64,000 nt of DNA from Eledone cirrhosa. Lineage: Eukaryota. Below the pieces are notes generated by a model, which saw only the letters and a program-made list of their open reading frames with translations, had not been told where the DNA came from and ran no database searches. The position numbers were made by a program, and so were the translations under genes. The stretch spans positions 169,818,001-169,882,000 of the forward strand of contig OZ024742.1 of NCBI GenBank assembly GCA_964016885.1, given 5' to 3'. Within the stretch, counting starts at the first letter, position 1. Every line of letters starts with the position of its first letter. Of this stretch, positions 1 to 63,160 are shown one piece after another.

Positions 1-1130
1 ACCTCAGTAATACAACATGTCAGTACCTCAGTAATACAACATGTCAGTACCTCAGTAATACATGTCAGTACCTCAGTAATACAACATGTCAGTACCTCAG
101 TAATACAACATGTCAGTACCTCAGTAATACAACATGTCAGTACCTCAGTAATACATGTCAGTACCTCAGTAATACAACATGTCAGTACCTCAGTAATACA
201 ACATGTCAGTACCTCAGTAATACAACATGTCAGTACCTCAGTAATACAACATGTCAGTACCTCAGTAATACAACGTGTCAGTACCTCAGTAATACAACAT
301 GTCAGTACCTCAGTAATACATGTCAGTACCTCAGTAATACAACATGTCAGTACCTCAGTAATACATGTCAGTACCTCAGTAATACATGTCAGTTACTCAG
401 TAATACATGTCAGTACCTTAGTAATACAACATGTCAGTACCTCAGTAATACATGTCAGTACCTCAGTAATACAATATGTCAGTACCTCAGTAATACATGT
501 CAGTACCTCAGTAATACAATATGTCAGTACCTCAGTAATACAACAGGTCAGAACCTCAGTAATACATGTCAGTACCTCATGTGGCCTTAATGATGATGGT
601 GCACTTGCCATCACTGACGCTGATAAGAAGTAATACATGTCAGTACCTCAGTAATACGTGTCAGTACCACAGTAATACAACTGTCAGTACCTCAGTAATA
701 CAACATGTCAGTACCTCAGTAATACATGTCAGTACCCCAGTAATACATGTCAGTACCTCAGTAATACAACTGTCAGTACCCCAGTAATACAACTGTCAGT
801 ACCTCAGTAATACAACATGTCAGTACCTCAGTAATACATGTCAGTACCCCAGTAATACATGTCAGTACCTCAGTAATACAACTGTCAGTACCCCAGTAAT
901 ACAACTGTCAGTACCTCAGTAATACAACATGTCAGTATCTTAGTAATACAACATGTCAGTACCCCAGTAATACATGTCAGTACCTCAGTAATACAACATG
1001 TTAGTACTTCAGTAATACAACATTCAGTAATACAACACGTTAATACCTCATTAATCCAACATATCAGTATCTCAGTAATCCCACATGTTAGTCCCTCATT
1101 AATCCAACATCTTCATAACTCAGTATCTCA
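1..1130. repeat. Intronic satellite with mixed 20/23-bp units (GTCAGTACCTCAGTAATACA[AC]AT), decaying after ~1000
   Basis: Tandem units read directly. It explains the spurious ITEVLTC ORFs. Confidence 0.97.
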
Positions 1131-1170
1131 CTAATCCATACTAAACTCTATGTAACATCATATAACTTAC

Positions 1171-3726: not shown

Positions 3727-4423
3727 CTAGCAGAATGACCCAGTGTTGCTCGGGATTCTAAACATAGATTAGCATGTTTATCCCTCCTTTCTGAAACAGT
3801 TTCGTCATATGTTCACCAATTGATGCAGAAGTCCTAATAAAAAGTGAAGTCGCCTTGGGTGAATAGGCAAATAATTTTCCATTAAGATTTTTCAAAAGTA
3901 TGTAATTGCGTTCCCTCTTTTTTTTGGTGTTGTTTTTGCTGATGTCGAGCCTCATGAAATAAATACGTTTGTTTATATTTTGTTATTGTGTATGCAAAAA
4001 TATCTGTACACGAATATATAATTATATATATATATATATATATTTATATATTAAAATAACAGATTAAAGTTTAAGCGAAGAATCGCTGCTTTCACCCTTA
4101 ACGGGATCTTCTGAAACTAAAAAATCAATCTGTGAACGCAGAAGTAAATATTTCGAATATACACACTATATATACACACACACACACACACAGATAGTGT
4201 CATAATGTCGTAATGCAGACAGCCAGACATACAGACATATTATAAGGGCGCGATGTTATAGCTATCTAATGCGGTCCCTAGGGTATTGAAAGTTTAAAAT
4301 ATTATTTGCTCAAAACACTCACACGACCATAAGTATTACATGTGTAAAGTTTGAAAAAAATCGGTTGGGTGGTTCTTGAGTTTTAGGGAGTCAGACAGAC
4401 ATTCTCTGTTTTAGATATAGAGA
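3727..4423 (-). mobile_element. Non-autonomous Helitron-like element
   Basis: On the - strand it starts with TC after an A and ends with a GC-rich hairpin plus CTAG before a T. A second partial copy lies at 42993-43188. Confidence 0.7.
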
Positions 4424-5118: not shown

Positions 5119-5476
5119 ATTATGTATATATGGAGAAACTAAGTTTCACTTTAAAATGTTTTTTATTGGATATTGAACATTACATATGTTTCACAAATGA
5201 TTGGCTCTAGGACTTTATCAATATGATAGACCTGACTCCAGCATTGATCTGCTCATCAGATATGTGTATTCAATCAAAACCTTTTCCTCTCTGGGGAAAC
5301 CAACACATTTTCCTCTTAGTTTTTATTGTTGAATACATATATCTGATGAGTAAATCGATGCTGGAGTAAGGCCTATCATATCGATAAAGTCCTAGAGTCA
5401 ATAATTTCTGAAACATGCAATGTTCAATATCCAATAAAAACATTTTAAAGTGAAACTTAGTTTCCACATACATAAT
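5119..5476. repeat. ~150-bp imperfect inverted repeat (5119-5273 / 5329-5476) with a hammerhead motif in each arm
   Basis: The arms are reverse complements with scattered mismatches; CTGATGA...GAAA cores are present. Confidence 0.9.
5173..5273 (-). ncRNA. Type-I hammerhead ribozyme motif, intronic, on the ANKRA2 pre-mRNA sense strand
   Basis: UUGAA..AUAU-CUGAUGA-GCAGAU(long loop)AUUUGU-GAAA-CAUAUG-UA-AUGU-UCAA. Core intact, palindromic stem III, GUA cleavage triplet. Confidence 0.72.
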
Positions 5477-6246
5477 ATATACACTCAGCTATAGCCCTGA
5501 GAGCTCATATTGGTGCAACCTCCAGTAATCAACAAAATTACTGAACAACATGTTTATTTCATTACTAAAATATTAACTTAATATATAATATTAACTTAAA
5601 ATATTAACTTTATATATAAAATTATGTTGAAAGATTCTAATTTAAATAGGAACTCTTTAAAATGGGTGGTTTTGTTTCATAGAACCAGTGCCAGTTTTCT
5701 TTAAGCCGATATCATAAGGGATAATTTTTTAACTCTTTCAATACTAACCCATTCAAAACTGCCTCTACTTCTAGGAAAAAAAGCCACCCATTTTAAATGG
5801 TTCTAATGTAAATTAAATTCTTTCATCTTAATTTTATATAAGAACATTTTGTTATGTTAGAAATACCATCTTAATAATTGAAATCATTTTAGTAAATCTC
5901 TTCTTTAGTAATTAATTCAAATACAGGGTATTTTATTAGAAATATGGTAGTGAAAGGATTGAATAATCAAGAACTGTTAAAGGAATTTGTAAAATAACTA
6001 AGTTTTCTATTATTAGGCAATCTATTTCATTAGAAATACAGTAACAAATGGATTAATGTTTTTTTCTTTCATAACCAGACTAAAATATCAACTTGAAACA
6101 GAGATCAATGTACTTTAGCTCCTTACAAAGCACTCCTATAAGTACCTACTCTGAATGTAGAAACAATGGTATTTTAGCTCCCTACCAAGTACCCTATAAG
6201 TATCTACCCTAAATGTAGAAACCAAGGTACCTATATAAGTACCTAC

Positions 6247-6760: not shown

Positions 6761-6769
6761 CTGTACCTC

Positions 6770-7320
6770 ATCATCATCATTTTACGTCTGCTTTTCCCTA
6801 CTTGTAAGGGTGGGACGGGTCCTATTCAGCACAGCATGTCTCTATTCATCACGGTCCTTCCTCATTTCCTCTGTGAGCTTCAGCGATCTGAGATCAGCTC
6901 TCACCACCTCCGCTCATGTTTTTCATGGTCTTCCTCCTACTCGGATTTCTAGGCACTTCTTTATCCAGCGGTCATCCTCCATGCACATCACATGTTCATA
7001 CCAATACAGTCTTCTCTCCCGCACACTACAGCTTATCCCTCTTATACAGTTTCTCTCTCAACTCGTCTATGCTTGGCAACGGAGCATGCTTACTTCATTT
7101 CTCTCTAGCCGTGGCATATCCTCTGCAGTTGCTACCCATGTCTCACTACCATGCAGCATCGCGCATCTCACACAGGTATCATATAACCGGCCTTTCATTC
7201 ATAGGAAGAAACCCTTCTTTGTCAACAGAGAAAGCAGCTCTCTAAACTTCTTCCAACCCATTCTTATTCTAGATACTATGGCCTCAGAGCACTCTCCTTC
7301 CTTGCTAATCTGATCACCTA
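6770..7320 (-). mobile_element. 3' fragment of an RTE-like LINE ending in a (GAT)n tail
   Basis: Encodes KKFRELL...KGFFL..KGRLYD..LHGSETW, as in the longer copies. Confidence 0.85.
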
Positions 7321-8119: not shown

Positions 8120-8362
8120 CGGCAGAGCGACTCAGTAAAGTGGTCAACGGAGTGGTTCAGTAGAGTGACTCAGTAAAGTGGTTCAACCGAATGGCTCAAA
8201 AGAGTAGTTCAGCAGAGTGGTTCAACAATGTAGGTCAGCAGAGTGGTTCAGTAGAGTGTTTCAACAGAGTGGTGTACTAGAGTGGTTCAGAAATGATACT
8301 CAACAGAGTGGTTCTGTAGAGTGGTTCAGCAGAGTGGGTCAACAGATTGGTTCTGCATAGTG
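8120..8362. repeat. Degenerate minisatellite with a ~14-16-bp AGAGTGGTTCAGC unit
   Basis: Tandem units visible. Confidence 0.85.
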
Positions 8363-8407
8363 TTACACTTCAAACAAGAACTGTAGAATACTTAGACTAA
8401 CATTTAC

Positions 8408-15684: not shown

Positions 15685-16860
15685 TTATGTCCGCTTTTGC
15701 CTGCTTGCAAGGGTTGGACGGGTCCTATTCAACACAGCATCTCTCCACTTGTCACGATCCTTCGTCATCTCCTCAGTGAGTTTCAGCGATCTGAGAACTG
15801 CTCTCACCACCTCCACCCATGTTTTTCGTGATCTACCTCTACTGTCTCTTCCTTCCACTGGGACTTCTTGGCACATTCTTCACCCAGCGGTCATCTTCCA
15901 TGCACATCACATGTCCATACCATCTCAGCCTTCTCTCCTGCACACCACAACTTATCCCTCTTATACCCAGTTTCTTTCTCAACTTGTCTATGCTTGGTGG
16001 TTAACGCACATTGACATTGCAATCCAACGGAGCATACTTGCTTCATTTCTCTCCAGCCAACGCATATCTTCTGCAGTTGATGCCCATGTCTCACTACCAT
16101 GCAGCATCGTGCATCTCACACAGGCATCATATAATCGTCCTTTCATACGCAGGGAGAAACCCTTCTTTGTCAACAGAGGAAGCAGCTCCCTAAACTTCTT
16201 CCAACCCGTCCTTATTCTAGATACTATGGCCTCGGAACACCCCACTCCCATGCTAATCTGATCACCTAGGTACCGGAAGCTATCAACCACTTCTATAGAA
16301 CCCACCCTGCATTGGAAAAATGTGTCTATCATTCCCAACTTTCCCTGTACATCTACTGCATACGTAGTTTTCCCTACCTGTTAGTTTGCCTGCTATCCCA
16401 CTACATCTCTTGTGTACCCAAGATCTGCATTGCGTACATTTTATGGAATTTATGCCAGTTCCTTTCCTACATATCAAACATGGCCATTTCCCTGATGGAA
16501 TCAGAGTATTGTCCTCTCTTCTATTTATCAACAATTTAGCTATTTTCCTCTCTTCTATTTATCTTCTATTTAGCTATGTTCACTCTCAGTCCTCTTGCTT
16601 CCAACTGCTGTTTCCATAGCCAGAATTTATTCTCTAGCTCCTCTACTGATTCTGCTATAAGAACCAGATCATCAGCATAGAGAAGTTCCAATGATAAGCC
16701 AGTCTTAAACTCCTCTGTTATGGCTTGGAGGACTATAATGAACAAGAGCGGGCTGAGGACCGAACCCTGATGTACACCTATTTGTATCTGGAATTCCTCA
16801 CTAAACTCCATTCCTATTCTCACTTTACTGACAGCACCCCTGTACATAGCTTGCACTGTC
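15685..16860 (-). mobile_element. 5'-truncated RTE-like LINE (RT with PHD-like insert)
   Basis: GVHQGSVLSPLLF, ELLYADDLVL, WPCLICRKG..CTQC..WVHKRCSG, FRYLG, LHGSETW; frameshifted. Confidence 0.9.
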
Positions 16861-16939
16861 CTCAGAGAGAGAGAGACAGAGAGAGTAAGAAATGTGTGTG
16901 TTTGGTACACGTCTATCTATCTATCTCTCCTATCTCTCA

Positions 16940-18035: not shown

Positions 18036-21000
18036 ATATCTATCTCTCCAACAGGGGGCTCAAACATGCGGCCCGCAAACTACTTTTATATGGCCCATGG
18101 TAGAACCAATATTTCAGATTCCATTATAACTGGTGAAAATAAGGCGATGAGCTGGTGGAATCGTTAGCATACCTGGCGAATCCGTTTTTTCGTTCCGAGT
18201 TCAAATTCCGCCTATCTCAACTTTGCCTTTCATCCTTTTGGGGGTTGATAAATTAAGTACCAGTTGTGAACTGGGAACAATGTAATCGATGGGACCCTAA
18301 ACCTTAAATTTCATGCCTTGTGCCTATAGTAGAAATGATTATAACTGGTGAAAATCATCACCCACCACGTTTGGCTCAGTGCTTCTCCTCCAGGACGTCA
18401 TGGCCCTTTTATGTCCTTGAGTTTGAGACACCTCTTCTACACAGACACACACACACACATATACACTTTACTTTTTTTCTGTCTCTGGACTACGCCCATG
18501 TTGGAGCATCACCTTGGTAAGTTATGGGGGAGTCAACAAACCAACAAGCATTGGTGGGAGGGCAAACACAAACGCAAAGACACACAGACATATATACATA
18601 TATACGACGCGCTTCTTTGAGTTTCGGCCTATCAAATCCACTCACAGGGCTTTGGTCGGCCCGGGCAGTAGGACTGAACCCGGAAACATGTGGTTGGGAA
18701 GCAAGTTAATCAAGTTAACAATGAAAATAAAAAGAACAAAGTCAAGTTACTTTATAACTTTGTTTTTATTTTGTTGTTTTTATTTTTATTGTTAATTTAA
18801 TACCTAATATCTGACTCTGTATCTAAAGAATTAATTCGGCGAAACACAGAACTTCTCTATGGATTTTACAAGATTACATTGAGTACTATCTACGGTGTGG
18901 ACCCTACCACCAGAGGTAGACCAGACTGAAAAAAGAAAAAAAGTATATATATGTGTGGGTCTGTGTGTGTGTAATATATGATATATATATATATATACAT
19001 ACATACATACATTTACCTATGTATATAGCTATGCATTTATACATTTGTATATATACATGCATTTATATTTAAGTGTGTAAGGATGTTGACATGATTTATG
19101 TTTTTTTTTTGGTAAGGAGAGATTTTTGCCTCCAGATTTTATTACCTAGGGAGATTAAATACCACAGCTCTGGCTGAAAGCTGACCAGGTTCTCAAACTC
19201 ATCAAACACCAACGCCGACTTGTGTGTGTGTATATATGTGTGTGTGTATGTATGTATATGTATACACCCACAGCTTTCATCACCATTGCTTCTTTTTCTT
19301 GTCGTTTCTGTTGTTCTTGTAACTGTTGTAAAAGTTGACATCCTTATTTTCATTTTCTTTGATTTCTTTCATTATTCTTTTATCTCCCTAGGGAATTTGT
19401 TGACAAGCTTTTATTTATTTTCTTCGTTTTCTTCATTCAAATGCATCAATATATTGTTTTTATATCTATAGATGTTGATTCATTTGTAACCTGTGCCTGT
19501 TATTATTTATTGTATGTATGTATAGATTTGCAGGACCACTTTAAGCCGAGCAGAACCCACCCCACCCCTCTCTAGAGAGTGATTGATAGGAAGCGAGAAA
19601 GAGATATTAGAGGAAAAATCGACCCCAGTACTGGACTGGTACTAAATTTATTGACTTTGGTACTGGACTGGTATTAAATTTATCAACTTCAACAGGAAGA
19701 AAGGCAAAGTAACCCTCAGTGAGTTTGGAACTGAAAGTACAGAGAGCCAAAACAAATATTGCAAAGTATTCTATCTGACATTCCAATGACTCTGCTAATT
19801 TTTTGCTTGTTGTTATTCATTACTGCAGACCAATTGAAAGTTCTGACCAATAGAAATATGCAGTGTGTATCCTGGATTTTAGAATAGGTATACTATATTC
19901 CTGTAAGAAGTGATTAAAAGTGTTGGCATGAGGGATGGAATCCAGCTATCAAACACTGCTGCAAAACCCTTCTCCAATCCATGCCAGCATGGGAAAAATG
20001 GACATAAAACTAATGACAATGATGATTCTGTGTCCAACTTATGATGTAACTGCTTAGATATGTCCTAATTTCTGCAATGCAATTCCTATCTCTGTGTTAA
20101 CCCTTTTCATACCCAAAACCACCTGTATGAACACTTGATACCTCAAATCACCTGATATCATTCATATCTCTGTATTAACCCATTTGTTATTAAACTACCT
20201 GAAACCACTCCTGTTTCCATGATACACACCTTTTTATTCTCAAAGGTTTATATTTATCTAAAAATCTGCCATCTTAATTTTATGTAAAAACCTTTGCTGA
20301 GCTCTTTTAAATACTAGCTTAATGAAAGTTCTTTCCACATTTTTGATTATTTTCAAAATTATTTGAAAATCTAAGGCAGTCTATCATTAGAAATGTGGTA
20401 ACAGAAAGGGTTAACCCTTTAGCATTTACATTACTCTATATTATCTATTGTATTTTCATGGTAAAGGCTTTATCTCATATAATTATCTTACATCATATTG
20501 AGTCTATGAGATTTTGATGTTATTTATTTTAAGAACAATACCTTAACATGAGTGTGAGTGGCCAGTTAAAGCCAGTTTGAACAGAAAGAGGTGAGAGAAT
20601 TCTGGTTGGATATGGCCAGTTTAAATGCTAAAGGGTTGAGTCACTTTGCAGCAAGATGACTCTCCACCAAAATCTGTTTTTGTTGTTGTTTAGCCACAGG
20701 TCAGTATTGATTACATTATCTACTGAATCCTTCCTATTTTGAAATAGAGGAAGGGAGCTGCAATAGAAGAATATTTGGGCACAAGTGGTGAGAGAAGATT
20801 TTAAAATGCTGAACCCCACAAAAGAGATAAAGAAAGTACATAACAAATGGAGGGAGAGTTGTGCTGGAAAAGGCTCATCAAGCCCATGCAAGCATGGAAA
20901 AATGAACACCCTAACTACTAAGCCACATGATTTCACAGAGGGCTCCTCCCACATTTGTTCAATCCACTAAGAGCTTACAAAACAGGTGATAGCAGGTTTA

Positions 21001-26224: not shown

Positions 26225-27545
26225 TTAGGCAAGGCGGGTCTTCTGTATTACTACGTAGCGCCAAAGATCTCGGTCCAGTGACATTGTCTTGGAGAGATGT
26301 AAGTGTGTGAAGTCGGAATTTATCAAGTCGTCCCAAGTTTTTCTGGGTCTGCCTACTCTGTGGCTACCGTCTATTTTTATTGCCCTGCACTTTTTTATAC
26401 AGCTGTCGTCTTTCATGCGCATCACGTGACCGTACCAACGTAGTCTTCTCTCGAGTAAACAACATCTGATCCCTCTTATTTCTAATTTTTCACTTAGTTC
26501 ATTTATGCTTTGCCGTTCACGTATATTACTATTACACATCCAGCGAGCATGCAAGCTTCGTTCCTCTCCAGTCTGCGTATATCCTCAGCACACAATGTCC
26601 AGGTCTCACTGCCATGCAACATTGCTGTTCGTATGCAGGCATCATACAGCCTGCTTTTCATTTTTAGAGAGAACCCTTTAGCGGCTAATAGTGGTATAAG
26701 CTCTCTGAACTTTTTCCATCCAGTTCTGACTCTAGCTACTGTACTTTCAGAGCACCCTCCACCACTGCTGATTTTGTCACTCACCCAAGTAACGGAAGGT
26801 GTCCACTATTTCTATAGAACCATCTGTGCAATGGAATGAGCTAGTATTCTGTGGGCACTTGCTGCTACTTATTGCACCAGAGCACCGGCCACATATAAAA
26901 TCTATATTCTTAGTTAGCTTACCTGTGATCCCACTACATCTTTTATGCACCCATACTTTGCATTTGGGACATAAAATGGAGTTTCTGCCTACTCCTTTCC
27001 TACACACTGAGCATGGCCATTTCCCGGATGGGACCGGTGCCCTATTTTCCTTCCTACAAACTAGAACTTTAGTCTTAGACAGGTTAATTTTAAGGCCTTT
27101 TGATTCTAGGCCATGCTTCCATGTTTGGAATTTCTTCTCTAGTTCAGCCATTGATTCAGCTATGAGTGTTAGATCATCTGCATATAGAAGTTCCCATGGG
27201 CAGCTGGTCTTGAACTCCTCTGTTATAGCCTGAAGGGCAATAATAAATAGTAGGGGGCTAAGAACGGAGCCCTGATGAACACGAACTTTTATGCTAAACT
27301 CTTCACTATATTCGTTGTTAATTCTAACCTTGCTGACTGTTTCTTTATACATGGCTTGTATAGCTCTCACAAGCCATTCCTCAACACCTAGTTTTCTAAG
27401 GGCCCACCAGATAATGGAACGGGGGACTCTGTCAAAGGCTTTCTCCAAGTCGACAAAAGCTAAGTATAGGGGTTTACTTTTAGCTAGGTACTTCTCCTGT
27501 AGTTGTTGTACAATGAAAAGAGCGTCTGTGGTACTTTTACCTGAC
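26225..27545 (-). mobile_element. RTE-like LINE, RT to 3' end, with PHD-like insert
   Basis: FVDLEKAFDRVP, QGSVLSPLLF, YADD, C4HC3 finger, LRWYGHVMR, GRPRKTW. Confidence 0.93.
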
Positions 27546-27607
27546 ACAATATATATATCTCTATCAAAACACCCCCCCGTGCAAGCGTGGAACACGGACG
27601 CTAAACC

Positions 27608-27638
<31 letters not shown>

Positions 27639-27659
27639 ATATATATATATATATACATA

Positions 27660-29060
27660 TATGATGCTCTAGAAAGGAGCAACTATAGAGGAATAAAACT
27701 AATGGGTCAAGTTATGAAAGTGATAGAGTTATGAAAGTGATAGAGTTCTAGCCCGGCTAATTAGGGAAAGAGTCACACTAGACGAGATGCAGTTTGGTTT
27801 TGTGCCTAAAAGTACTACAGATTCCCTCTTCCTAGTAAGACAATGACAAGAGACGTTCCTAGCCAAGAATAAACCACCATATTTAGCTTTTGCTGATCTA
27901 GAAAAGGCCTTTGACAGAATACCTCGATCTGTTATCTTGTGGTCCTTAAGGAACACCAGATGTAGAATGGCTTTTGGGAGCAGTTAAAGCCCTGTACAGA
28001 GGAGCTGTCAGTAAAGTGAGAGTAGGAAAGGAGTTTAGTGAGGATTCAAGGTACAGGTAGGAGTTCATGAGGGTTCAGTCATAAGCCCACTTCTATTCAT
28101 TATAGTTCTCTAGGCCATACCAGAGTAGTTTAAGACTGGCTGTCCATGAGAACTTCTTTATACTGACGATCTGGTTCTTATAGCTGAATCCGTAGAACTA
28201 GAGAACAAATTGAGACTGTAGAAACAGAATTTACAATCAAAACAGCTGAGAGTAAATTTTAAAAAACCTAAAGTGTTAGTAAGTAGGAAAGAAATTAAGA
28301 CCCTGATCCCATCAGAGAAGTGGCACTATTTGATATGCAGAAAAAGAGTAGGTAGAAATTCTATATGATGTACAATGCAAATCTTGGGTACACAGGATGT
28401 GTAATGGGATAGCAGGCAGACTAACAGGAAAGGAAGACTTTGTATGTGATAGTTGCATAGGGATAGTAAGATAGGCAGAGATGCAATTAATCCTTCTCCA
28501 ATCACATGAAGATCCATAGAAATGGCTGATATCTTGTTAAATAGGTGATTTAATTAGCAGTGGAAGAGGGTGCTCTGAGAGCATAGTAGCTAACATACAG
28601 GGAGGCTTGAAGAAGTTTAGAGAGATACTCCCTCTGTTGACAACAAAGGGTTTCTCCCTACGACTTAAATGCCAGAAGCATTGTAGGGAATCATGGGCAG
28701 TGACAGCTGAGGATATGCATAGGCTAGAGAAAAATGAAGCAAGCATACTTTGATGGATGTGCAGTGTTAATGTGAGAGAACGACAGTTTGGCTGAACTGA
28801 GAAAAAAAAGAGTTTAAGAAGAATCAGAAGTACAGCTCAAAAGAGAAGATTGTATTGGTGTGGACATATGATGTGCATGGATGATGATTGCTGGATGAAA
28901 ACATAGAAGGAAGGTTCAGTAGAAGACTTTGGGTGATGTGAAAGCTGATCTCGAATTGTTGAAACTCATAGAAAAGATGACAAAGGAATTCAACAAGTGG
29001 AGAGATGCTGTGCTGAAAAAGATCTGTCCAACACATTCAAGCATGGAAAAACTGACATAA
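27660..29060 (+). mobile_element. Decayed RTE-like LINE of the same family
   Basis: NYRGIKL, QFGF, DLEKAFDR and later motifs, with many stops. Confidence 0.85.
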
Positions 29061-29139
29061 AAACAATGAAGATAATATACACACACACATATACATATAT
29101 GTAGTTATATGTGTGTCTGTGTATATATATATATATACA

Positions 29140-30525
29140 TATCTAATTAGAGAAAGGGTCAAATTAGATGAGATGCAGTTTGGTTTTGTGCCTGAGAAGA
29201 GTACAACAGATGCCCTCTTCTGAGTAATCAACTACAAGAGAGGTTCTTAGAGAAGAATAAGCCACTACACTTAGCTTTTGTTGACCTAGAGAAGGCCTTT
29301 GATAGAGTACCCCGATATGTCATCTGGTGGTCTCTAAGGAAACTAGGTGTAGAGGAATGGCTTGTGAGGACAGTGCAAGCTATGTACAGGGGTGCTGTCA
29401 GTAAAGTGAGAGTAGGTATGGAGTTTAGTGAGGAATTCCAGATACAAGTAGGAGTGCATCAAGGTTCGGTCCTCAGCCCGCTCTTGTTCATTATAGTCCT
29501 CCAATCCATAACAGAGGAGTTTAAGACTAGCTGCCCATGGGAACTTCTCTATGCTGATGATCTGGTTCTTATAGCAGAATCAGTAGAGGAGCTAGAGAAT
29601 AAATTCTGGCTATGGAAACAGCAGTTGGAAGCAAGAGGACTGAAAGTAAATCTAGATAAGACTAAAGTGTTGATAAGTAGAAAAGAGGACAAAACTCTGA
29701 TTCTATCTGGGAAATGTTCGGTATGTAAAAAAGAGTTGGCATAAATTCTATAAAATGTACACAATGCAGATCTTGGATACACAAAAGATGTAGTGGGATA
29801 GCAGGCAAACTAACAGGTAGGGAAAACTACATATGCAGTAGATGTACAGGAAAATTTGACAGTAGAAGTCGCAGTGATAGACATATTTTTCAAATGCAGG
29901 TAGGATCTATAGAGGTGGTTGATAGCTTCCGATACCTAGGTGATCAGATTAGCAAGGGAGGAGGGTGCTCCGAGGCCATAATATCTATAATAAGGACGGG
30001 TTGGAAGAAGTTTAGGGAGCTGCTTCCTCTGTTGATAAAGAAGGGTTTTTCCCTACAAACGAAAGACTGGTTATATGATGCCTGTGTGAGATGCGCGATG
30101 CTGCATGGTAGTGAGACATGGGCAGCAACTACGGAGGATATGCGACAGCTGGAGAGAAATGAAGCAAGCATTCTCAGTTGGATGTGCGATGTCTATGTGC
30201 ATGAATGACCAAGCGTAGATGAGTTGAGAGAGAAACTGTTGTGTATAAGAAGGATAAGTTGTAGTGTGTGGGAGAGAAGACTGCGTTGGTATGGACATGT
30301 GATACGCATGGAGGATGACCGATGGGTGAAGAAGTGCCAAGAAATCCCAGTAGAAGGAAGACCAAGAAAAACATGGGTGGAGGTGGTGAGAGCTGACATC
30401 AGATCGTTGAAGCACACGGAGGACATGACAAAGGACTGTGACGAATGGAGAGATGCTGTGCTGAATAGGACCCGTCCTACCCTTGCAATCAGGGAAAAGC
30501 GCACGTAAAATGATGATGACGATGA
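29140..30525 (+). mobile_element. RTE-like LINE, RT to 3' end (close to 15685-16860)
   Basis: ORFs 29364-29744, 29894-30208 and 30224-30508 carry RT motifs; (GAT)n tail. Confidence 0.92.
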
Positions 30526-48769: not shown

Positions 48770-49876
48770 TATTTGTAAGTTCATTGTTTTCATCAACGTT
48801 TCACTCAAGATTAGCAGTTTGAAATCGTGGTATACATCAACAGCTCAGCTTGTTTATCTGGGGTCTATATTCTAAGGGGGCTCTTTTATAATAGTTGTAA
48901 AAGGGATGGGTTAGAGGGAATTAAGAGAATTTGAAAAGGGCCTAAAAGTTAGGGATTGAAGGTTAAAAATTAAAGAATTTATAAGTTACGCATTAAAAGT
49001 AAAAGACTTGGGATCCCCTAAAAGCCCCTTAAAATACACCTCGATAAGCGCATAAAGCTTATAAGCCCCAATAAACCTAAAAAACCAGAAGAGATTAAGA
49101 GAATAAAAAAATTAAAAGTTTCCTAAAATTCCTTCAAAAAAAAATTTTTTCTAAGAAATTCCCCTAAAAAAATTTAAGAAAATTTACGAAGATTACGAAT
49201 TTTTAGGAAACTTTAGGTACAGATTAGAGGTTAGAAATTAAAAAGAAAAAGGAAGAAAGGAAAATGATAAAGAGGAATGATATAGAATGAGTAAATTGTA
49301 TTATATAATATATAATAAATATTATTGAAATAAGGTAGAAAGATGGGTATATTTGTAAAAGATATATAAGCCTTTGAGAAAAAGGATTTTAAACTAGTAA
49401 GGTATTAGATATTAGCTGTATACTTTATGGAATGTTCTGTGGAATTTATGCAAGCTGAGAGAAAATAAATCCGTGCGTCTATTTATTATAGAATTGAAAA
49501 TAGATATAATGGTAAATTTCTCGGCTAGGCAGAGATTACATGTTCTGGATAGGGAAGAATTCAAGTAGTTAAAGGCAAACCTTCCTCCAAGAGATGTTAT
49601 AGTTAATATTTTTCTCTTTCAAGGACCATATGAGTTCCGAGAGTGCCGTGTTAGTCTTTTAGATACCAACTTAAAAGTACTAACACGGCACTCTCGGAAC
49701 TCATATGGTTTATACTCCAGTCCTACAAACTGTAGAGTGCTACTTATCCGATATTTGCATTGCTTTATTGTGCTATAATAAAACTCACCTCCTACATTAT
49801 ATATATATATATGTATGTGTGTGCATGTATATATACGTATGTATATATATATATATATGTTGGTGTATTTATGTAT

Positions 49877-49946
<70 letters not shown>

Positions 49947-49990
49947 AAGTTAAATAAAAGTCAAATGATTAAAATTTAGCTTCGTTTATT

Positions 49991-50045
49991 ACTGCTATAT
50001 ATATTTCAGTGACAGCCATCTTTGGCTGTGACCTCTTCAGGCAGT
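49991..50045 (-). ncRNA. Type-I hammerhead ribozyme motif (left arm)
   Basis: Reverse complement of 50126-50180. Confidence 0.8.
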
Positions 50046-50125
50046 TTGAATTAGTATGGTATAGAGTATTGACAATATCATACACCTAAATAACATATGT
50101 ACTTGTCTATACCATACTAATTCAA

Positions 50126-50180
50126 ACTGCCTGAAGAGGTCACAGCCAAAGATGGCTGTCACTGAAATATATATAGCAGT
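50126..50180 (+). ncRNA. Type-I hammerhead ribozyme motif (right arm)
   Basis: ACUGC-CUGAAGA-GGUCACAGCCA(AAGA)UGGCUGUCACU-GAAA-UAUAUA-UA-GCAGU, then AAUAAA. Confidence 0.8.
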
Positions 50181-50792
50181 AATAAACGAAGCTAAATTTT
50201 AATCATTTGACTTTTATTTAACTTTATTTTACACTACTCCGGAGTAACCAAACCAACCTGCGCACTTCGTCGAGTGCTCCAGCCTGCATACTGAGGTGTT
50301 GGTATACAACCAACATAAACTCAAAATCTATATATATATATATATATATATATATGGGTGTGTGTATGTGTGTGTATATGTGCCTCTGTGTATGTGTGCG
50401 TGTATATATTTATATATATATGTATGTATGTGTGTATATGTGAGTGTGTGTGCGTGTGTGTGTGTACGTGTGTGTTGTTATATATTCTTATTTATTATCC
50501 CCCCCCCCTTTTTTTTCCCTCTAGCCTCACTTTCATATCTGTTATATTTTTGTTTTTCAAATCCACTGTCAATAATAAAGACACCAGGATTTTTTCATTC
50601 TGATGAATGAAAGCAATTTTGGTTGCTTTCAAGAAACCACTGGTAAATGAAATAATTATCTTATGTTGTTTATTACATAACTATATATATATATATAATG
50701 TAGGAGGTGAGTATTGTAGCACAATAAAGCAATGAAAATATCGGATAAGTAACACTCTACAGTTTATAGGACTGGAGTATAAATAATATCTT

Positions 50793-62114: not shown

Positions 62115-62600
62115 ATAATTGTTGTGGGTAAAATGATTATGTGGGTAAAATGATTATGTGGGTAAAATGGTAGGTAAAAAAATTATTGTGGGTAAAGTGG
62201 TAGGTAAAATAATTATTGTGGGTAAACTGGTAGGTAAAATAATTATTGTGGGTAAAAGGTAGGTAAAATGATTATTGTGGGTAAAGTGGTGGGTTTAATG
62301 ATCATTGTGGGTAAAATAATTATTGTGGTTAAAATGGTAGGTAAAAGGATTATTGTGGGTAAAATGGTGGGTGAAATAATTATTATGGGTAAAGTGGTAG
62401 GTAAAATAATTAGTGTGGGTAAAGTGGTAGGTAAAATAGTTATTGTGGGTAAAGTGGTGGTTAAAATGATTATTGTGGATAAAAATGTGGGTAAAATGAT
62501 TATTGTGGATAAATGGTGCGTAAAATGATTATTGTGGGTAAATGGTGGGTAAAATAATAAATGTGAGTAATCTGGTAGGTAAAATAATTATTGTGGGTAA
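62115..62600. repeat. Minisatellite with an ~18/30-bp GGTAAAATAATTATTGTG unit
   Basis: Tandem units visible. Confidence 0.92.
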
Positions 62601-63160
62601 AAAAAAGACCCCCCCCCCCACCAAACGGATTCCCCCCAAATAAAAAACGGACCTCCCCAAATAAAAAACGGATCCCCCCAAATAAAAAAATGGATCCATC
62701 CCCAAATAAAAAACGGACCCCCCCCCCCCAAATAAAAAACGGATCCATCTCCAAATAAAAAACGGTACGCCCCAAATAAAAAACCGTACGCCCCAAATAA
62801 AAAACGGATCCCCCCAAATGAAAAACGTATCCCCCAAAATAAAAAACATGACCCTCCGAATAAAAAACGGATGCCCCTCGAATAAAAAACGGACCCCACC
62901 CGAAATAAATAACGGACCCCAAATAAGATGGATTCCCCCAAATAAAAAACAGATCCATCCCAAATAAAAAACGGACCCCACCCAAATAAAAACCGGACCC
63001 CCCCCCCCCCCCGAATAAAAAACGGACCCACAAATAAAAAATGAACCCCCAAATAAGACGGATCCCCCCAAATAAAAAACGGGATCCCTCCCCCATCCGA
63101 ATAAAAAACGGACCCCACCTGAAATAAAAAATGGACCCCCAAATAAGACGGATCACCCCA
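62600..63160. repeat. Minisatellite with a ~21-bp CCCCAAATAAAAAACGGA(T/C)C unit
   Basis: Tandem units visible; they explain the G/F-rich spurious ORFs. Confidence 0.92.

What the first reader, a model, noticed from the sequence alone, without database searches (positions are those of the whole stretch)
49940..50231. Perfect 292-bp palindromic double-hammerhead cassette
Seen: identical 126-bp arms (hence young), each with a complete hammerhead plus AATAAA, pointing outward. The geometry matches the unrelated cassette at 5119-5476: in either transcription direction the antisense copy precedes the ribozyme. Inference: a recurrent class of minimal non-autonomous elements made only of inverted pLTR ends ('ribozyme MITEs'), which are self-silencing and possible endo-siRNA sources against the parent PLE.
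Basis: partly seen in the sequence, partly recalled or inferred. Interest (0 to 1): 0.72.

Follow-up and report, generated by a model that had tools for sequence, protein, structure and literature searches.

The report
Back-to-back Penelope retrotransposon stub
This mirror-image DNA is two clipped ends of a common Penelope-type jumping gene joined back to back in a TA repeat, likely built afresh at insertion when both cut DNA strands copy the same RNA, so it is a known kind of insertion by-product rather than a self-contained ribozyme element.

Summary
The palindrome is real: 126-nt identical arms, 40 nt apart, each with a minimal type I hammerhead motif and AATAAA. It is not a mobile 'ribozyme MITE'. 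The 'spacer' is simply the longer arm. In 77 sampled loci, 37 head-to-head insertions have 31 different junctions. This exact junction recurs once, in another subfamily with the tail on the other arm. The architecture is published. My counts add: exactly one tail in 36 of 36 resolved insertions, both arms from one subfamily (371 of 379 sites), either arm longer, and 377 palindromes folding at one site against 6 at a control site. These favour double priming of one RNA at two fixed sites over fold-back. No excess of ends at the ribozyme cut was found. RNA, small RNA and cleavage were untestable. The scan noted the same reading before on other DNA, in this genome and others.

The parts
49880..49939 (.). 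(TA)n target microsatellite, left flank
   Evidence: sequence; nearly all family 3' ends abut (TA)n
49940..50065 (-). Tail-less arm: 5'-truncated pLTR copy, reference positions 3972-4097 of the 4097-bp unit L033:2831-6927, 98.4% identical
49985..50045 (-). Minimal type I hammerhead motif (49991-50045) and AATAAA (49985-49990) of the left arm
   Evidence: activity untested
50063..50065 (.). AGA microhomology at the head-to-head junction
50063..50231 (+). Tailed arm: 5'-truncated pLTR copy, reference 3929-4097, 97.6% identical; includes the 40-nt apparent spacer 50066-50105
50126..50186 (+). Minimal type I hammerhead motif (50126-50180, predicted cut after 50175) and AATAAA (50181-50186)
   Evidence: activity untested
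50232..50334 (+). 103-nt tail = first 103 nt downstream of the pLTR in the full element (99% to reference 1-103); the last bases merge with TA
50335..50355 (.). (TA)n target microsatellite, right flank
5119..5476 (.). Comparison only: older head-to-head hammerhead palindrome of an unrelated family, with a probable tail to the right; parent element not identified

Best explanation
The cassette is a short insertion of a 4.1-kb Hydra-clade Penelope-like retrotransposon: two 5'-truncated copies of its hammerhead-bearing end joined head to head in (TA)n with a 103-nt tail on one arm, likely made in one event by two reverse transcriptions primed on opposite strands of one cut. Shown: parent element, boundaries, junction microhomology, one tail per insertion, same-subfamily arms, variable junctions. 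Inferred: the RT-endonuclease cuts both strands of (TA)n; one 3' end primes at the tail end (+103) and the other at the pLTR end (0) of RNA from one source, probably one molecule; both cDNAs stop (here at 3929 and 3972; most often at about 3875, the likely RNA 5' end) and are joined through microhomology. The product is a non-coding dead end that lacks the likely start site. If a host transcript read through it, it would form a 126-bp hairpin with the ribozyme inactive. Odds: identity as a PLE by-product about 0.93; the double-priming mechanism about 0.6-0.65.
For: 4238 exact hammerhead-core hits in G000, 0 for the reversed control. Tandem pLTR-body-pLTR copies L033, L048 and L088 give the 4097-bp unit with RT and C-terminal GIY-YIG pieces (Pfam GIY-YIG E=0.0013, under its cut-off; atlas leads). 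One tailed and one tail-less outer end in 36 of 36 resolved head-to-head insertions. From two independent end patterns on C1: 36 of 39 head-to-head pairs mixed, 0 tail-less on both arms, 3 tailed on both (overlaps the sample). Tail-less arm longer in 18, tailed arm longer in 8, within 5 nt in 11 of 37. In 8 of 77 loci the partner arm is only a piece of the tail and shares no sequence with the other arm. Arms agree at 371 of 379 subfamily-site comparisons, about 141 disagreements expected if independent; 48 of the 50 listed centre-pattern loci carry the same variant on both sides. 377 palindromes centred at 3873-3875 against 6 at a site with the same CATATG word. Published biochemistry of another PLE: both strands cut and extended, two RT start sites bounding the tail, predicted dimer (PMC11167929, parts 1-2 of 4).
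Against: No RNA or biochemical evidence for this family. Near-symmetric junctions are over-represented away from the hotspot (9 of 21 within 25 nt against 1.8 by permutation), which fold-back also predicts. Arm concordance could come from gene conversion between arms. One locus (L126) has tail sequence on both arms, the right one running into another piece of the element at tail base 90. 8 of 77 loci have a short inverted fragment with no 3' end, which double priming alone does not explain. All long copies examined have broken ORFs, so no active source copy was seen. The sample is the first 100 of 4238 hits, all on C1, and needs an exact core in one arm.
Confidence: 0.75

Rival explanations
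1. Same element and same product, but the second arm arises by self-priming (fold-back) on the cDNA or on an antisense RNA, as proposed in PMC3846280, followed by nuclease resolution that leaves one tail.
For: Same-subfamily arms; excess of near-symmetric junctions (25 palindromes in a 16-nt control window); junction microhomologies; an RNA hairpin is predicted just inside the hotspot.
Against: Fold-back of a tailed first strand requires the tailed arm to be the longer; the tail-less arm is longer in 18 of 37. Tail-only partner arms with no overlap (8 of 77) cannot be hairpins. L092 has the window's junction with the tail on the shorter arm.
Confidence: 0.15
2. This copy inserted as the common 446-bp symmetric palindrome and later lost its centre by a microhomology-guided deletion of the cruciform tip (instability of perfect palindromes is recalled, not sourced; one search gave no direct paper).
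For: Both arms lie inside the 3875-4097 interval of the modal class; AGA microhomology; identical junctions recur at microhomologies; short inverted remnants with non-TA flanks at L002, L046 and L084.
Against: The arms carry no mutation against each other, leaving little time. It explains this locus's size but not how palindromes first form, nor long asymmetric ones. It is compatible with the best explanation as a later step.
Confidence: 0.15
3. One reading: a non-autonomous 'ribozyme MITE' made of inverted pLTR ends that moves as a unit and is kept as an endo-siRNA source.
For: One size class is fixed and abundant (446 bp; 7 of 37 in the sample, 377 loci with the exact centre). A second family shows the same geometry.
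Against: This cassette's junction has 2 copies, independently formed. The 446-bp class spans at least 5 haplotypes, and short copies share the common haplotypes with long ones. Terminal asymmetry (one tail) and (TA)n ends are those of PLE integration. A predicted -231 kcal/mol fold would likely hinder reverse transcription (inference).
Confidence: 0.05
4. Assembly artefact (a fold-back read or a collapsed repeat).
For: No contig spans the whole cassette or meets the tool's 31-letter bridging rule.
Against: Asymmetric junction, one-sided tail and a locus-private base; dozens of like structures with distinct junctions; the same junction at a second contig. Short-read contigs of 52-55 nt in 2 of 4 runs cross this junction type with 1 mismatch, perhaps from the C7 copy.
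Confidence: 0.02

Closest known systems
Hydra clade of C-terminal EN+ Penelope-like elements (Craig et al. 2021, PMC8557442; section 11 read whole, other passages, supplement rows)
   Same: RWK, DKT, CxCX5C linker, no CCHH, CxxC and CxH around E/N, hammerhead in the pLTR, (TA)n targets
   Different: Unit is 4.1 kb (Hydra 'generally <3 kb'); tail is 103 nt against 30-40 nt described for PLEs; no tree was built
EN+ PLE insertions with an inverted 5'-truncated pLTR and one-sided tail (PMC8557442 Fig. 2 legend; Adineta Pen2a and others, PMC3846280 passages; D. virilis Penelope, PMC2377424 passages)
   Same: Head-to-head inverted copy, microhomology or palindrome at the junction, tail on one end
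   Different: Here both copies are truncated inside the pLTR, so no ORF remains; a TSD cannot be read in (TA)n; PMC3846280 explains the junction by self-priming on an antisense template, which my counts disfavour
Anolis Poseidon PAc in vitro (Frangieh et al. 2024, PMC11167929; parts 1-2 of 4 and passages)
   Same: Two RT start sites bounding the tail, both strands cut and extended, hammerhead not needed for insertion
   Different: The parts I read do not tie the two start sites to opposite target strands or to inverted insertions; the tail there lies in the ORF, here upstream of the likely start codon
L1 twin priming (Ostertag and Kazazian 2001; title seen in a reference list; content recalled)
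   Same: Second target strand primes internally on the RNA, giving a head-to-head junction with microhomology
   Different: Here the second site is fixed 103 nt from the first, so arms overlap and form palindromes; no poly(A)
Animal non-LTR retrozymes (bioRxiv 10.64898/2026.07.22.740005, part 1 of 5)
   Same: Non-coding, type I hammerhead, PLE pLTR-derived
   Different: Retrozymes are direct tandem arrays with same-strand ribozymes; here one ribozyme lies on each strand

Membership tests
EN+ Penelope-like element insertion | Parent ORF with RT and GIY-YIG endonuclease | tested here: met
   YRDD core and C-terminal VYG...YIG in L033, L088, L082; Pfam GIY-YIG E=0.0013, below cut-off; atlas neighbours 0.93-0.97, with RVT_1 on 12-13% and GIY-YIG on 31% of members in some clusters; Pfam and PDB did not name the RT
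EN+ Penelope-like element insertion | pLTRs from partial tandems, with a hammerhead motif | tested here: met
   pLTR-body-pLTR in L033, L048, L088; motif
EN+ Penelope-like element insertion | Inverted 5'-truncated copy and a tail on one end | tested here: met
   36 of 36 resolved head-to-head insertions
EN+ Penelope-like element insertion | Target-site duplication | not testable with these tools
   both flanks are (TA)n
Hydra clade | RWK present; DKG changed to DKT | tested here: met
   MRWKAF and HADKTNN in L033 and L088 translations against section 11
Hydra clade | CxCX5C linker; CCHH absent; CxxC and CxH flanking E and N | tested here: met
   CNCRNPESC; one Cys between VYG and YIG; CKLC...CRH
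Hydra clade | (TA)n insertion preference | tested here: met
Hydra clade | Placement in an RT phylogeny with Hydra references | not tested
   no reference sequences fetched, no tree built
Neptune/Nematis clades | CCHH motif and CX2-5CxxC linker | tested here: not met
   this was my first guess and was dropped
Minimal type I hammerhead of PLEs | Core nucleotides, stems I and II, short palindromic stem III | tested here: met
   10.1-11.1 is G-U where PMC4209133 reports conserved G-C
Minimal type I hammerhead of PLEs | Self-cleavage (as a dimer or protein-assisted) | not testable with these tools
   no RNA; as an indirect test, 15 palindromes near the cut site against 25 in a control window
MITE-like non-autonomous unit | Homogeneous size and junction across copies | tested here: not met
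   31 junctions in 37 insertions; 2 copies of this junction
MITE-like non-autonomous unit | Own lineage apart from the autonomous element | tested here: not met
   7 of 7 haplotypes with 3 or more arms include long copies; 12 sites only, no full tree
Non-LTR retrozyme | Direct tandem monomers, each with a hammerhead | tested here: not met
   one copy per strand
Hairpin endo-siRNA locus | Transcription and 21-22-nt RNAs from the stem | not testable with these tools
   no RNA holder listed

The most novel reading that the evidence does not exclude
The family's insertions are a genomic record of the unsolved Penelope integration step: one RNA is copied twice, once from each cut target strand, from two fixed sites 103 nt apart, one site per strand, and both copies usually run off the RNA's 5' end about 120 nt upstream of the hammerhead. 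Every insertion, including apparent solo copies, would be a two-cDNA product, and about a thousand resulting hairpins could feed small-RNA silencing of the parent.
Probability: 0.55. Interest if true: 0.58.

Novelty: new member of a known kind. Interest (0 to 1): 0.36.

Why it matters
The cassette itself is ordinary and should be annotated as a Hydra-clade PLE fragment, not a new element class. The family matters because papers call the origin of PLE inverted ends undefined (PMC8557442) or attribute it to antisense self-priming (PMC3846280). The strict one-tail rule, same-source arms and tail-only partner arms give sharp predictions for the existing in vitro PLE assay (PMC11167929). I did not find that model in print in three searches, but the library lacks most subscription papers, and older PLE reviews (Arkhipova 2006; Evgen'ev and Arkhipova 2005) were not read.

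Tried and rejected
DNA search of G000 with one arm returned nothing, not even the window (the tool skips very common words), so exact patterns were used. Rfam: only low-complexity miRNA matches below gathering score. Pfam and PDB did not recognise the RT pieces. Neptune assignment: dropped after reading the Hydra section. Microhomology alone as the cause of the 3875 hotspot: rejected, 377 against 6; an RT stop at the base of the predicted hairpin is not excluded. Hammerhead cleavage defining cDNA ends (a lead from note e1-8622537): 15 palindromes near the cut site, about 8 ending at or within a base or two of it, but 25 in a control window, so no excess. My one-RNA versus two-RNA test using mixed 3875/cut-site junctions found 21 loci, mostly at TATA microhomology, and is uninformative without a cut-site peak. 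No RNA holder listed. Contigs of 4 runs each, kind not on record: no piece spans the stretch, 2 runs have 52-55-nt contigs across the junction, under the bridging rule and possibly from the C7 copy; X6 and X4 laid nothing. Rows dropped before counts: L085 (right end broken) from the tail count, L079 (end outside the fetched stretch) from the 37, and 4 complex loci from the span list. L036 and L039 look like duplicates and were counted as 2. Host genes around the cassette were not examined. PMC311219 is not held. Supplements of the bioRxiv preprint could not be seen, and supplements of PMC11167929 and PMC3846280 were not opened; they may bear on the novelty claim.

Full report
Observation. The arms 49940-50065 and 50106-50231 are exact reverse complements of 126 nt with 40 nt between. 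Each carries, pointing outward, a minimal type I hammerhead motif followed directly by AATAAA. One arm folds with stems I and II in its minimum-energy structure, though no better than shuffles (z = -1.19). Rfam has no hammerhead match. Stem III is short and self-complementary, the kind that PMC4209133 (passages) reports to work only as dimers and weakly. The two motifs here lie on opposite strands, so one transcript cannot supply both.

The parent. The 37-nt hammerhead core occurs 4238 times exactly in the 3.0-Gb genome G000. I fetched the DNA around all of the first 100 hits (contig C1, 1.8-92 Mb), which form 77 loci. Tandem copies define a 4097-bp unit (L033:2831-6927). Its broken ORF has RWK, DKT, a YRDD RT core, a CxCX5C linker, a C-terminal GIY-YIG-like domain without CCHH, and CxxC and CxH motifs. 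These are the diagnostics of the Hydra clade in PMC8557442 section 11; no tree was built. Mapped on this unit, the cassette is [3972-4097] on the minus strand, [3929-4097] on the plus strand, then [1-103]. So the 'spacer' is the longer arm, the junction overlaps by AGA, and a 103-nt tail extends the insertion to 50334. Both flanks are (TA)n.

Is it a mobile unit? By hand, the 77 loci are: 38 head-to-head pairs of pLTR-bearing arms (one with an end outside the fetched stretch), 8 with a partner arm that is only part of the tail, 2 with a tail remnant of about 10 nt, 8 with a short inverted fragment lacking a 3' end, and 21 solo or tandem. The 37 fully seen pairs have 31 different junctions; the 33 simple ones span 194-3443 bp. 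24 of 77 are short double-hammerhead palindromes like this one, which scales to roughly 1,000 in the genome (an extrapolation, biased upward because pairs have two chances of being sampled). The window's junction occurs at one other locus, where the tail is on the other arm and the subfamily differs, so it formed twice. Identical junctions recur wherever microhomology exists. One class is fixed: a 446-bp palindrome centred at 3873-3875, 7 of 37 in the sample and 377 loci with the exact centre. It spans at least 5 haplotypes, and all 7 haplotypes with 3 or more arms include long copies.

How it forms. Shown: exactly one outer end has the tail in 36 of 36 resolved pairs. Two separate end patterns give 36 mixed, 0 tail-less on both arms and 3 tailed on both among 39 head-to-head pairs (overlapping the sample); two of the three are internal tandem junctions and one (L126) is a complex exception. 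Either arm can be longer (tail-less 18, tailed 8, equal 11). Arms agree at 371 of 379 subfamily-site comparisons against about 141 expected disagreements, and differ by 1.4% against 4.4% between loci (41 pairs). Inferred: both strands of a (TA)n cut prime reverse transcription on RNA from one source, one at +103 and one at 0, and the two cDNAs are joined at their 3' ends. This matches PMC11167929 (parts 1-2 of 4), where another PLE cuts and extends both strands and starts at two sites bounding the tail. Fold-back, the reading of PMC3846280 (passages), cannot give tail-only partner arms or a tail on the shorter arm. Against my reading: near-symmetric junctions are enriched away from the hotspot (9 of 21 against 1.8), which fits either fold-back or two copies running off one broken RNA; conversion could homogenise arms; and later central deletion may have shaped this locus.

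The hotspot. A control site with the same CATATG word gives 6 palindromes against 377, so position 3875 is likely the RNA's 5' end or a strong RT stop. An earlier scan note suggested the first; PMC2377424 (passages) shows an internal promoter in Drosophila Penelope. Both arms of this cassette stop short of that site. No excess of ends was found at the predicted ribozyme cut (15 against 25 in a control window).

Function of the cassette. Read through in either direction it is predicted to form a 126-bp hairpin, with the hammerhead fold disfavoured by 82 kcal/mol, against 0.9 kcal/mol in a single arm. That follows from any perfect inverted repeat and is not evidence of selection. siRNAs from Penelope inverted repeats are reported in Drosophila (PMC3681739, passages). 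Expression and small RNAs could not be tested here.

Second cassette. Its core pattern has 14 hits at 13 loci. The window copy and L119 are full head-to-head pairs, L117 is partial, and L111, L113 and L120 look by eye like tail-only inversions. Its parent was not found within 1.5 kb. The geometry recurs across families, as expected of an integration by-product.

Verdict. Observation confirmed, boundaries too short; interpretation partly supported. This is a new member of a known kind. The architecture is in print (PMC8557442 Fig. 2 legend). The double-priming reading was not found, within the library's limits. The scan's earlier notes reach the same reading in at least 11 genomes and elsewhere in this one; they are unchecked AI notes and are not counted as support. 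Interest 0.36.

Noticed in passing
window 49215-49709: Another repeat family (128 exact hits of a 29-nt pattern; 82-93% over about 450 nt to 11 of 12 fetched loci and in two pieces to the twelfth) ends here with its own short head-to-head inversion (49651-49709), which makes the hairpin at about 49626-49708; possibly a third family with PLE-type ends.
   Followed up: partly
window 49697-49810 and 50674-50789: Inward-facing inverted copies (92% over 78 nt) of a further repeat that ends in (TA)n enclose the microsatellite holding the cassette; also present in L153, L157, L159 and L055. Two insertions into one microsatellite or a TIR element; not resolved.
   Followed up: partly
window 5613-5698 and 5755-5840: An 86-nt inverted repeat, 81% complementary, next to the second cassette; similar sequence at 2378-2498 and 20175-20295.
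   Followed up: no
L002:1347-1384, L046:1154-1189, L084:4851-4886: Three loci have an inverted fragment from the hotspot that stops at reference 3908-3910, just before the 3' side of a predicted hairpin, with non-TA flanks; unexplained.
   Followed up: partly
L130 and L131: Smallest palindromes of the family, arms of 38-39 nt centred on AAATTT at 4060 plus the tail; they lack the hammerhead entirely.
   Followed up: partly
L034, L036, L039, L065, L079, L101, L106 and others: Many tail ends continue into (CT)n before (TA)n, as if the terminal TCTC of the tail were extended by slippage.
   Followed up: no
Runs under four different organism codes hold 0.68-0.92 of the sampled words of the pLTR and tail, so the family may be shared with relatives; X4 and X5 laid 3 and 1 contigs.
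   Followed up: partly
L053 minus strand, 495-aa ORF; L063, L085, L015, L009: Other PLE-like RT/GIY-YIG ORF pieces of different families lie close to the sampled insertions.
   Followed up: no
window 27018-29716, 16022-16864, 29365-30523, 6768-7320: Several long dispersed and inverted repeats of another family, 72-94% alike.
   Followed up: no
window 4-1149, 8131-8367, 62127-63142: Minisatellite arrays with periods of 21/24, 13, 30 and 21-23 nt.
   Followed up: no
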